A program made the position numbers and the translations under genes. The notes below the pieces were generated by a model. It was given only the letters and a program-made list of their open reading frames with translations. It had not been told where the DNA came from and made no database searches. 64,000 nt of DNA from Camelus ferus (taxonomy: Eukaryota), in NCBI RefSeq assembly GCF_009834535.1, contig NC_045696.1, positions 67,272,001 through 67,336,000 on the forward strand. The letters run 5' to 3'. The number at the start of each line of letters is the position of its first letter. Positions within the stretch are counted from its first letter, which is position 1. Below, piece by piece: positions 28,221-32,000 of this stretch.

Positions 28221-30309
28221 GAAAAGTAGTAGCTAAATAAATTTCAGATTCCTTTAAGGGAGGACAAACAGTGTTGGCAATTGGTGATCACAACTGAAAC
28301 TCATGCAGATGGGAATAAGAAAGTTTCAGAAGAATGAACTTTGGAAAAGGGAGGTGACTTTCCAGGCAAACTTAAACATCTCTTCTTTCACAAAGCTGGC
28401 TCTGGTCACCTCAAATTAGAAGTGATCATATTCCAATCACAGCACATATAATGCTTTGGGCTTTTCTTATAGCACTGAATATACGTGACTTTGTGTCATA
28501 GTGTCTTTGTCTTATGGTTCTAAATAGATGGTGAACTCTTAAAGACAAGGAATGGGCTCTGTTTCAGTATATTTCTCAATACTTAGTTCACTGCCCTATG
28601 CATAGTGGGACTCCTGAATATGTGTTGTAGATATTATGTCCCATAAATGCATGTTGAATTCGGTGTAGATACAACATACAGCAGAATTTTATATCTGAAC
28701 ATACAATAGGATTTTATATCTTCAAATCTGTCCTCATGTGTCCATATTGATTCAAATCTTACCTTAAAGTCTCTGTTCCTAGTCTGTCTCCCATTTCATT
28801 TAATTGCTTAAGAAGATCAGTGACAAATACTTAAGAGACAACAAAGTAGATGCATGACTTTTGGCAAATTCTTACTCCCTGTGTTTTATTATTCTCTTTT
28901 GGAAGTAGAGGATAGCAGTCCTTTTCCTGGATAAATCACAAGGTAGTGTATAACTCAAATTGAATATTGTTTATTATCACACTTGCAGTATAGAAAAGTC
29001 TTTTAACCATTTTACAAGCCTCTCTACAGGTCACTCTAAGGCAGACTAGCTATTCTCCTTGAGGGAACAGACCAGCAGACTCTTGTGATAATAAAGCTTC
29101 TACTATCATAAGACTTACTCCCAATCCACCAAGCTGTTCCTTTGTGTATCGTCTGGGACCAAGGTGGGCAGTTTAGCTTTTGCCTATAAAAGACTCAAAC
29201 AGATAATTAAAGGAATCCATATTATACTGTAGACCAAACATCCTCTTGTTAGTCTGAATTGTTCCTATTAGCATCATTCCATCATTCAGTACATATAGAG
29301 ACAATGAGATAAATGTCAAAGTAAAGATTACTAAAAAGAAAAATGCAGTATGAAAATGTTCCAGATTTGAACAACAATTTCAATCTGTTATCAAATTCTC
29401 AAGGAGAAATCCAGGTCCAAAAATGAATGTCCTTTCTCACTGTAAGTTTTGTGCCATGAAACAAAATCATCCCTATGCTTTTTTTCTTTTTTCATTTCAT
29501 CCAGAGTGTCGGATGGCTCAGAACCCTGGACAGAGCCTGAGTTCCTGTATCATCCTCAGCCTGAACTATCTAATAGAATAGGGGTAGTTCCTTAAATGCT
29601 TTTCAAATTAAATTAATCTAAGCAAGATTTTCTCTTGCCCCACTAGCTAAAAACATCAGGAAGTTAATAGATATAAATATTATCACAATGCCTGCTCCAC
29701 AACCTCAAAATATATTAAAAAAAAAAAAAAAAGCAAAAATCCCAGCCCTTAGAACAAAGATCTCAGTCAAAATGATGCCCTAGATCTCAAGGTATGGAAC
29801 ATTAAGACACACATAGCTGTTGTGAAGACACAAGCAGACAACCAGGATACCCGAGTAAAGGGGAGTAAAGAGAAAAAATAATATCCACACCTTTTAGCTG
29901 TACCAGTCTCTTGGTCCCGAGTCTACTCTGGATAAAACGTGAAACTTATACTTGGTGAGAATAAAATATCTTATCATTATATTAAGAATAAGGATATTTA
30001 CCCTAATTGCATGTGGGAAGAATGTACTTGTGTATACTCTCAACTTTTCTTCAAAGAGTGAGTGACTTTTCTTGCTTTTTTTTTCAAAGTTTAGAAATTT
30101 TCAGTGGTAACAGCTGCAGGCATCAGGTCATTGTTGAGTTTGTTTGTTTTAGTCAATCCAACATATTAAGCCTCTAAAAATATCCAGCTCTACTTTGCAC
30201 CCATGCTCCTGGTACTTCAGCATTGGGTTGGGAGTGACAGCCGCCACATCCCCTTCTGAGCGAGCATTCTAAGCATAGTGGCTATTGCCACTACCTCTGG
30301 CAAACACTG

Positions 30310-31178
30310 AGTGTCTGCTATTTTTGCAGTAAGCACCTTTGCTACAGACATTTTTGCCACAAACATTACACTGCATAAAATCGGCCTTACGGCAACTTTT
30401 CTGTGAAAGATAAAATAACTGGTTGATGGTTTTTGGTTTGACAGTTTGGTTTCAGCTGGTTGAAATGTGTTAATATTTCTTCCAGTTAGTGACATTATTG
30501 ATGGTTTTAGCGAGCTGACAGGTGACAATGGTTTGCACCAAGAGTTGGTTTCTTATTTTGAAACACACTGCATTGGAGGAGAGAGGCTGCAGGCCTCAAG
30601 GATGCAGAGTTGAACCCACATTTCCCATAGAACTCTGGAATGTTTGTCAATAAACATGTGACAAGATGCCAAGAACAAACATTACAGATTCTCACAATGC
30701 AATTCGAAGCTCCGTTACAAACATGCATTCTAGTATTTGGAAGCTGATATCTTTCTTAATGAAGGAAGAAATTTTAGCAAAAAAGAAAAAGTGTGATGTC
30801 AAACCAGAAGACAAATCAATAAGCAAAAAAAGAAAGTATAAATACTACAAACAAAAGACTTGAAAGACAAATGCTTAGGTACAAGCCACAAAATAAAATC
30901 AGTTTTTTGCTCTGTAGTGCCATGAGTCTCCACAAGTTTTAACTGCATTCAAATGTTTTATATTTCACAACTAAGTCTTTTTAACTCTGCTATTCATTTC
31001 TCATGTTTCACTATGTCCTTCTTAATTCCCTGTCTTATTTTTCATTATCTTATCTTCTATGGCAGAATTGTCTTATGGCTAATTAGCACAAATATTTATA
31101 GCACTAATATCTACAGCACAAATATTTATGGCAAAAATGCTGGCAGCAAAGATGCTTATGGTAAAAGTATCTAGAACC
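30310..31178 (+). mobile_element. Non-autonomous Mutator/MULE (MuDR superfamily) DNA transposon with a transposase C-terminal remnant
   Basis: Perfect 9-bp TSD caaacactg (30301-30309 and 31179-31187); ~58-bp imperfect TIRs (~70% by ungapped hand alignment); 15-bp subterminal units; disrupted frame FLPVSDIIDGFSEL..ELVSYFETHCIGG / EPTFPIELWNV..MPRTN..HNAI..MHSSIWKLI..EE / RLERQMLRY..ISFL..AMSLHKF*. Confidence 0.9.
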
Positions 31179-31187
31179 CAAACACTG

Positions 31188-31236
31188 ATATTTGGGAGTT
31201 TGTTACAGCAGCTGGTATCTCTTACGCTTACTAATA
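31188..31236 (+). mobile_element. MLT1-type LTR 3' terminus (target of the MULE insertion)
   Basis: (cactg)atatttgggagtttgttacagcagctgg...tactaata matches the MLT1 end ccactgagatttgggg..tgttacagcagct. Confidence 0.6.
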
Positions 31237-31539
31237 ATAAAGTCATGATGTCATGAGTTCTGAGTTTTCCAATTGCATTTATGTTCAATCATCTGGTCTG
31301 CCCACATCTCCCAGCATCACATGGTCACATTTTGAACATATTGTTTCATCAGATCAGTATTTATATCAAGCCTAGACACCACCTCTTGTTGACTTCCTGG
31401 ATTTTCCTTTTTGTCCCTGTGTCTGGCACAGTTAAAATGCCCTTCCAGGTTTAATGTTTTCTTACTTGTCTCCCAGATACTTGGCTTGCTCATAGGGCGC
31501 TCAGGATGCCACTGCAGTCTCCAACATCTCACCTGCTGG

Positions 31540-32000
31540 CATGGCCTCCATTGCACCTGCTGTGGCTGGAACCAGAGTAGCTCCAGAAGCCAGACTCTAG
31601 GACTGGGACCTGGTCCAACTCACAAAGATGCTGGTTCCTTCTACCACTCCAGAACTTGGAAGCAGTGCTAACTCATAGGGCATGGAAACTGGCTTCCCCA
31701 AGGACTGCCCCTTTAAAGGGGCCAGGCGATGCAACCTAAAAATGCAAGGATTTCTCTCTATAATGAGAAGTTTGACTATTGAGTGACAGGTGGTGCTAAA
31801 TTGCTGGCAAATAAATTCCTCTTGGCTCCTCTTTCCAGAGATGGTTCACATGATTGGCTAATCATTGGTGATTTTTATGAAGATGTAGAGAGTTCAGTAA
31901 CTCCCACCTTGTATTTGCTTCCCTTCTTTTCCTCTTCACCCTCTTTCCCTTCACTCTCTCTGCTTGAGATTGTACCTCCCAGCAAAGTATTTGCCTCGGT
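31540..32000 (+). mobile_element. Old ERVL-class LTR fragment
   Basis: gcaaataaattcct..., ttgcttcccttcttt...gagattgtacctcccagcaaagtatttgcctc; family uncertain. Confidence 0.45.

What the first reader, a model, noticed from the sequence alone, without database searches (positions are those of the whole stretch)
30301..31187. Structurally complete Mutator/MULE transposon fossil in a mammalian genome
Seen: an 869-bp unit (30310-31178) bounded by a perfect 9-bp direct repeat caaacactg, with ~58-bp imperfect inverted ends and a frameshifted, stop-containing frame (FLPVSDIIDGFSEL, ELVSYFETHCIGG, EPTFPIELWNV, PRTN, HSSIWKLI..EE, RLERQMLRY..FL..AMSL). Established: ~9-bp TSDs and the P.FP..LWN...PRTNN..E..H...HP.IWK signature characterise MULE/MuDR DDE transposases, and MULEs are a rare class in eutherians (Ricksha is the main family I know). 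Inference: this is an internally deleted copy. The N-terminal DD half is missing, and the PRTNN..E motif reads PRTNITDSH, so the catalytic E appears lost. The TIRs do not match my recollection of Ricksha, so it may be a minor or poorly described family, but it may already be catalogued.
Basis: partly seen in the sequence, partly recalled or inferred. Interest (0 to 1): 0.72.

Follow-up and report, generated by a model that had tools for sequence, protein, structure and literature searches.

The report
Mammalian Mutator fossil with flipping interior
This is a dead, shortened copy of a Mutator-type jumping gene with dozens of decayed sister copies in this mammal's genome; its nearest named relatives are in prawns, sea lice and octopus, so it likely entered mammals from an invertebrate, and its sister copies carry their middle part either way round between two unlike ends.

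Summary
Observation confirmed: an 869-bp element (30310-31178) between perfect 9-bp repeats, holding the broken C-terminal third of a MULE transposase. It is one of at least 82 decayed copies in this genome, about 14% from the family majority. The 9-bp duplication is a family trait (21 of 61 anchored copies match at 6+ of 9; null 1.3%). Corrections: the inverted arms are about 100-130 bp with 15-bp tandem units, not 58 bp. The catalytic E is lost in this copy but kept in 25 of 30 sister copies. The FLYWCH and DD half survives in other deletion classes and one near-full copy. The family majority is 62% identical to a Macrobrachium FLYWCH+MULE protein and groups with crustacean and octopus proteins: a Phantom-type MULE, likely horizontally acquired. 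The two 7-bp tips differ, as in nematode Tm1. The interior points either way between them (28 against 27), while same-tip pairs are rare (5 of 60). Dfam and Repbase could not be searched, and a horse Phantom is in print. This scan noted what looks like the same family before, once in this genome and three times in other genomes.

The parts
30301..30309 (.). left target-site duplication, 9 bp
   Evidence: identical to 31179-31187; 9 bp is the family length
30310..30316 (+). terminal tip of type A (7 bp, unlike the other tip)
   Evidence: tip profiles from 43 A and 46 B ends
30317..30418 (+). left inverted arm with 15-bp tandem units
   Evidence: pairs with 31045-31171; tandem units at 30338-30367
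30419..30469 (+). left non-coding remnant and the internal deletion joint; about 900 bp coding FLYWCH and the two catalytic D are missing here (approximate)
   Evidence: 870-bp copies jump from about position 170 to about 1090-1120 of near-full copy L034
30470..30942 (+). broken C-terminal third of a MULE transposase (about residues 310-467 of the prawn relative), 2 frameshifts, 1 internal stop, own stop codon at 30940-30942
   Evidence: blastx E 2e-35 to P0165; 84/156 identical
30685..30687 (+). codon at the catalytic E position, CAG (Q) in this copy
   Evidence: majority GAG; E in 25 of 30 copies
30943..31044 (+). AT-rich 3' non-coding part of the element
   Evidence: shared by the family
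31045..31171 (-). right inverted arm with 15-bp tandem units
   Evidence: D1, I1; 31084-31138, 3.7 units
31172..31178 (-). terminal tip of type B (7 bp)
31179..31187 (.). right target-site duplication, 9 bp

Best explanation
This is a dead, internally deleted copy of a multi-copy Mutator (MULE) DNA transposon of the FLYWCH+MULE (Phantom) type, likely acquired from an invertebrate and likely spread tens of millions of years ago by the transposase of a full-length copy. Shown: the family had an element of about 1.8 kb coding FLYWCH, D, D and E; it gave several deletion classes that multiplied; insertions carry 9-bp duplications; each element has one A tip and one B tip outside 100-130-bp arms built of 15-bp units; the interior lies in either direction between the tips. 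Inferred: the transposase bound the tandem units and cut at the tips, as shown for mosquito Muta1; deleted copies such as this one were moved in trans; the interior was flipped by homology between the two arms (crossover, or template switch during gap repair) while they were still nearly identical; transposition likely needed one tip of each kind; activity was roughly 60-70 million years ago (14% at a recalled rate of about 2e-9 per site and year). The window copy has no sign of function.
For: At least 82 distinct loci (from; a lower bound). Divergence from the majority at non-CpG sites: mean 0.139 over 30 copies, window 0.114. 9-bp duplication 21 of 61 (p 1e-24 against the 1.3% null). Best full-length relatives carry Pfam MULE (6 of 6 scanned) and FLYWCH (3 of 6). 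17 of the 20 loci fetched with the DD half of P0004 also carry this family's arms. L034 covers residues 1-467 of P0165 with 12 frameshifts and 9 stops. Majority against Macrobrachium P0165: 281/451 (62%) overall, 108/159 (68%) in the window's part, higher than sea louse against prawn (59%). In a 32-row tree the family lies in an 11-row clade with Caligus, Lepeophtheirus, Macrobrachium, Palaemon, Octopus and unnamed proteins (SH-aLRT 99). Tips: 28 A-B, 27 B-A, 3 B-B, 2 A-A, 1 untyped of 61; among the 21 with a duplication of 6+ of 9: 10 A-B, 11 B-A, none same-tip. Both directions occur in the 870-bp class (17 and 6) and the N-terminal class (7 and 6). Of the positions separating 7 B-A from 18 A-B copies at p<0.01, all but one lie at the tips. 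Same architecture in Tm1 (PMC3169594, passages).
Against: 40 of 61 anchored copies show under 6 of 9 matches at the duplication, fewer matches than simple decay would give (my arithmetic: about 80% should pass); some ends are mis-anchored, and single copies fit 8 or 10 bp (L003, L013). 18 of 79 elements could not be anchored and were left out of the tip count. The copies were not sampled at random: the first 30 leaned A-B, the 20 fetched later leaned B-A, so 1:1 is approximate. The window peptide itself matches no Pfam family, because the Pfam model covers the deleted half. The tree is the quick search without bootstrap, midpoint-rooted, and most rows are unnamed; no donor is identified, and other vertebrate genomes could not be searched. 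Arms of one copy are only slightly more alike than arms of different copies (0.69 against 0.68, p 0.012), which does not date the flips.
Confidence: 0.85

Rival explanations
1. The family is already catalogued, for example as the horse Phantom of Marquez and Pritham 2010 or as a Dfam/Repbase family of non-human placentals; the element is then simply a known repeat.
For: Dupeyron et al. 2019 (PMC6446971, section 6) state that MULEs were reported from horse. At least 82 copies at 14% divergence are within reach of de novo repeat finders (own judgement). Earlier notes of this scan report similar elements in other mammal genomes (unchecked).
Against: The same paper found no MULE transposase in the horse sequence supplied and counts only 3 placental MuDR entries in Repbase; the human Repbase list has only Ricksha, Ricksha_0 and Ricksha_a (PMC5753468). 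Ten literature searches gave no description of this family. A second, unrelated MULE family in this genome (L031/L049) could equally be the horse element.
Confidence: 0.5
2. It is a member of the Ricksha family.
For: Both are placental MULE fossils with deletion derivatives (PMC5753468, PMC1431705).
Against: Ricksha has 79-bp inverted repeats and one form carries an ERVL/MLT2B piece (PMC1431705). Here the arms are 100-130 bp with a variable number of 15-bp units and unlike tips, and the interior of the majority aligns to transposase from residue 1 to 467. My recollection of the Ricksha ends and peptide also differs (recalled, no call).
Confidence: 0.05
3. The two directions of the interior come from one or two early inversions in master copies, inherited by their descendants, not from frequent flipping.
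For: One inversion in an autonomous copy followed by parallel deletions or conversion could give both forms; star-like decay hides young sub-lineages; lower-ranked copies fetched later were mostly B-A (14 of 16), which hints at sub-lineage structure.
Against: Both directions occur in three deletion classes with shared breakpoints, which needs one inversion per class or repeated identical deletions; only one internal position separates the two forms at p<0.01.
Confidence: 0.3
4. The family was inherited vertically from old vertebrate MULEs rather than transferred from an invertebrate.
For: No donor above about 70% identity was found, and vertebrate genomes other than this one could not be searched.
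Against: [quoted passage not shown]
Confidence: 0.1

Closest known systems
Phantom subclass of MULEs (Marquez and Pritham 2010, not held and not read; features from PMC3169594 and PMC6446971, group 20)
   Same: FLYWCH finger plus MULE domain, 9-bp duplication, sub-terminal or Foldback-like inverted repeats
   Different: fossil family in a placental mammal; placement in group 20 was not tested with named Phantom sequences
Tm1 of root-knot nematodes (PMC3169594, passages)
   Same: unlike 7-bp tips inside a 9-bp duplication, one at each end; a variable number of 13-15-bp units; deletion derivatives; same-tip elements rare. One tip begins CG and the other GG in both families (my comparison with the printed motifs).
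   Different: other tip and unit sequences; the passages read do not report that the interior lies either way between the tips
Muta1 and Muta5 of Aedes aegypti (PMC5225508, passages)
   Same: 8-9-bp duplications, about 150-bp repeats with 12- or 15-bp units, DDE triad; Muta1 shown to cut and paste in yeast
   Different: recent or active elements of 3.2-3.5 kb with introns; terminal motif described as palindromic
FLYWCH+MULE proteins of Macrobrachium rosenbergii (P0165), Caligus rogercresseyi (P0004), Lepeophtheirus salmonis (P0167) and a MULE fragment of Octopus sinensis (P0176)
   Same: 59-68% identity to the family majority in the window's part; one clade
   Different: intact or nearly intact frames; their DNA ends were not seen
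Ricksha, Ricksha_0, Ricksha_a (Repbase/Dfam; PMC5753468, PMC1431705)
   Same: MULE fossils of placental mammals

Membership tests
Mutator/MULE superfamily | DDE transposase of the MULE type (PF10551) | tested here: met
   family level: both D motifs in the majority, E in 25 of 30; relatives pass the Pfam cut-off. The window copy alone lacks both D and the E.
Mutator/MULE superfamily | 8-11-bp target-site duplication | tested here: met
   9 bp; perfect in the window; 21 of 61 against 1.3%
Mutator/MULE superfamily | long terminal or sub-terminal inverted repeats | tested here: met
   arms of 102 and 127 bp in the window
Mutator/MULE superfamily | dispersed copies with unrelated flanks | tested here: met
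   at least 82 loci; both flanks of the window copy match only themselves
Mutator/MULE superfamily | orthologous empty site with one copy of the duplication | not testable with these tools
   no outgroup genome is held; the two DNA runs laid carry both junctions unchanged
Phantom subclass | N-terminal FLYWCH finger | tested here: met
   the majority aligns to residues 1-151 of P0165, which has PF04500 on record; absent from the window copy by deletion
Phantom subclass | sub-terminal or Foldback-like repeats with tandem units | tested here: met
   15-bp units, tip-to-anchor distances clustering near 50, 65 and 80 bp
Phantom subclass | phylogenetic placement with named Phantom elements (group 20) | not tested
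   no named Phantom transposase was in the tree
Ricksha | 79-bp terminal inverted repeats | tested here: not met
   arms 100-130 bp, variable, outer 7 bp not inverted (PMC1431705)
Ricksha | sequence match to the Ricksha consensus | not testable with these tools
   no Dfam or Repbase library on hand

The most novel reading that the evidence does not exclude
An uncatalogued Mutator family that jumped from a crustacean-type lineage into early hoofed-mammal or laurasiatherian ancestors, whose transposase needed two different ends while the sequence between the long arms flipped freely, so that tip order and gene direction are uncoupled; the CG/GG tip pair would be a conserved, unrecognised end signal of Phantom elements from nematodes to mammals.
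Probability: 0.3. Interest if true: 0.6.

Novelty: new member of a known kind. Interest (0 to 1): 0.38.

Why it matters
The latest survey of Mutator elements doubts that vertebrate MULEs are real (PMC6446971). This family has a readable FLYWCH-DDE transposase, 9-bp duplications and close invertebrate relatives, so it settles that point for one placental lineage and adds a candidate transfer from invertebrates to mammals. The uncoupling of tip order from interior direction gives a testable rule about how Phantom-type ends are paired. The window copy itself is an ordinary dead repeat.

Tried and rejected
Pfam on the window peptide and on the ten aligned pieces: no relevant family. An 8-bp duplication (hAT-like reading), considered, was rejected (1 of 45 at 8 bp, 17 of 45 at 9 bp). 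PF10551 in the own genome gave 1 match of 9 candidates, and it belongs to another family. Metagenome contigs: 0 hits with a 22-nt window motif; 96 pattern matches, none confirmed, with P0004; two alignments had no usable conserved stretch. So no DNA ends of invertebrate relatives and no copies from other mammals were seen as DNA. Paralogous empty site: each flank matched only itself. Sequencing runs: holders are near-identical genomes under two organism codes; none of the joints shown (41 were not shown) removes the whole element; the RNA labels are guesses, so nothing on expression. Age by orthology: unnamed protein P0002 and copy L006 are each other's best match (106.6 bits against 80.7 for the next of 18 matches), but P0002 was found with L006 and is as close to the majority (76%) as to L006 (72%); its N-terminus looks to me like a ruminant repeat (recalled), which the Atlas did not confirm. 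Kept as a hint only. Arm homogenisation within copies: weak (p 0.012) in the inner arm, none next to the tip (p 0.35). The careful tree did not finish; the quick tree was used. The supplement of PMC10162687 had no MULE, MuDR, Mutator or Ricksha entry; 12 of 17 supplements of PMC4514817 gave only Ricksha_c.

Full report
Observation. The outer inverted repeat is 49 nt at 78%. The arms in fact run 30317-30418 and 31045-31171, with extra 15-bp units on the right.

A dispersed family. A search of the own genome gave 40 scored loci of 121 candidates at 70-79% identity for the main matches. With there are at least 82 distinct loci, a lower bound. For the 30 best copies, divergence from the majority at non-CpG sites is 0.139 on average and 0.114 for the window. 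At a recalled neutral rate near 2e-9 this is roughly 60-70 million years, an inference. Two DNA runs under two organism codes carry both junctions without a difference; both may be the source of this DNA or close to it, so they say little.

Ends and duplication. Anchoring ends with two motifs read off the copies placed both ends in 45 of 59 elements. Only a 9-bp register is enriched: 17 of 45 match at 6 or more of 9, against 1.3% of mismatched pairs; 1 of 45 at 8 bp and 1 of 45 at 10 bp. With 20 more loci the count is 21 of 61 anchored, of 79. Against this: two thirds of anchored copies fall below 6 of 9, more than decay alone would give, so some anchors are wrong or some insertions made 8 or 10 bp.

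Transposase. Pfam does not see the window peptide. A profile of ten in-frame pieces found 1,844 proteins at E<=0.001. The best long ones carry MULE (6 of 6 scanned) and FLYWCH (3 of 6). Named relatives are from Caligus, Macrobrachium, Lepeophtheirus, Palaemon and Octopus. Searching the own genome with the DD half of the Caligus protein gave 39 matches of 47 candidates; 17 of the 20 loci fetched carry this family's arms. Mapping on the near-full copy L034 shows several deletion classes: the window's 870-bp class keeps only the C-terminal third, a second class keeps FLYWCH and DD but not E, and a third joins the first 300-400 bp to the C-terminal part. The family majority is 281/451 (62%) identical to Macrobrachium P0165, and 108/159 (68%) in the window's part; the window copy is 84/156. 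In a quick tree of 32 rows the family falls in a clade of 11 with crustacean, octopus and unnamed proteins (SH-aLRT 99). Long, distant rows make the root unsure, and no donor can be named.

The catalytic E. The majority has GAG here and 25 of 30 copies keep E. Nearly all 870-bp copies share a 1-bp loss just behind it; L004 and the near-full copy keep the frame. So the 870-bp class was dead as a gene before it spread and must have been moved in trans (inference).

Two unlike tips and a flipping interior. The outer 7 bp differ between the ends: type A begins CGTGTCC and type B GGTTCTA. Relative to the transposase direction, 28 elements are A-B, 27 B-A, 3 B-B, 2 A-A and 1 untyped, of 61. Among the 21 with a clear duplication, 10 are A-B, 11 B-A and none same-tip. 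Both directions occur within the 870-bp class (17 and 6), the N-terminal class (7 and 6) and the third class. Apart from one site, no internal position separates the forms. I infer inversion of the interior by homology between the arms while the family was active, with tips left in place, and a likely need for one tip of each kind. Caveats: sampling was not random, 18 elements were unanchored, and an early inversion in a few master copies is not excluded.

Comparison with what is known. Tm1 of root-knot nematodes has the same build: unlike 7-bp tips inside a 9-bp duplication, variable 13-15-bp units and a FLYWCH+MULE Phantom transposase (PMC3169594, passages). The passages read do not mention both interior directions, and the search listed only this paper. 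Conversion and recombination between long repeats are discussed for Galileo (PMC3573991, passages). Muta1 gives the experimental model for cutting and pasting (PMC5225508, passages). Human Repbase lists only Ricksha forms under MuDR (PMC5753468, passages), with 79-bp repeats and a retroviral piece (PMC1431705, passages). Dupeyron et al. (PMC6446971; passages, first part of section 6, supplement search) doubt vertebrate MULEs but cite a horse Phantom from Marquez and Pritham 2010, which is not held and whose supplement may hold this family. PMC9004415 was seen as one table passage; PMC10162687 and PMC4514817 as supplement searches only. Ten searches gave no description of this family, but Dfam and Repbase could not be searched.

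Earlier notes of this scan. One note in this genome lies 13.96 Mb beyond the window's end, which is the place of my L033/L060, a member of this family. Three notes in other genomes describe elements with the same invertebrate relatives; I could not check their DNA. They agree with the reading I had already logged and are not independent support; one gave me the lead to PMC3169594.

Verdict. Real, well-defined and dead: a new or poorly described member of the Phantom-type MULEs in a placental mammal, with about even odds of being catalogued. The likely invertebrate origin has been noted by this scan before; the uncoupled tips and interior are the addition here. Interest 0.38.

Noticed in passing
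L031/L049 (G000:C25:37,232,700-37,234,200), L035, L045: A second, unrelated MULE family with a near full-length decayed transposase; 72% DNA identity among these loci over 1.3-2.2 kb, almost no DNA similarity to the window family, 34% protein identity to P0165, and a distant branch in the tree.
   Followed up: partly
L034/L052 (G000:C9, about 40,490,950-40,492,900): Near-full-length copy of the window family, about 1.9 kb, with a private duplication of about 130 bp near the right arm; B tip at the 5' end; 12 frameshifts and 9 stops.
   Followed up: yes
L018: A copy with a tandem duplication of about 200 bp of its left part.
   Followed up: no
P0087 (unnamed database protein): A prawn-like relative in which the FLYWCH part is joined directly to the C-terminal part, a deletion much like the third mammalian class.
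   Followed up: no
P0002 and L006: Possible orthologous copy in another mammal, sharing several private changes and the same frame shift; the host clade is a recalled guess.
   Followed up: partly
window 31188-31240 and 31520-31720: The right flank looks like fragments of old LTR repeats (MLT1-like and LTR16-like; recalled, from no call); a search with 31179-31300 matched only itself.
   Followed up: partly
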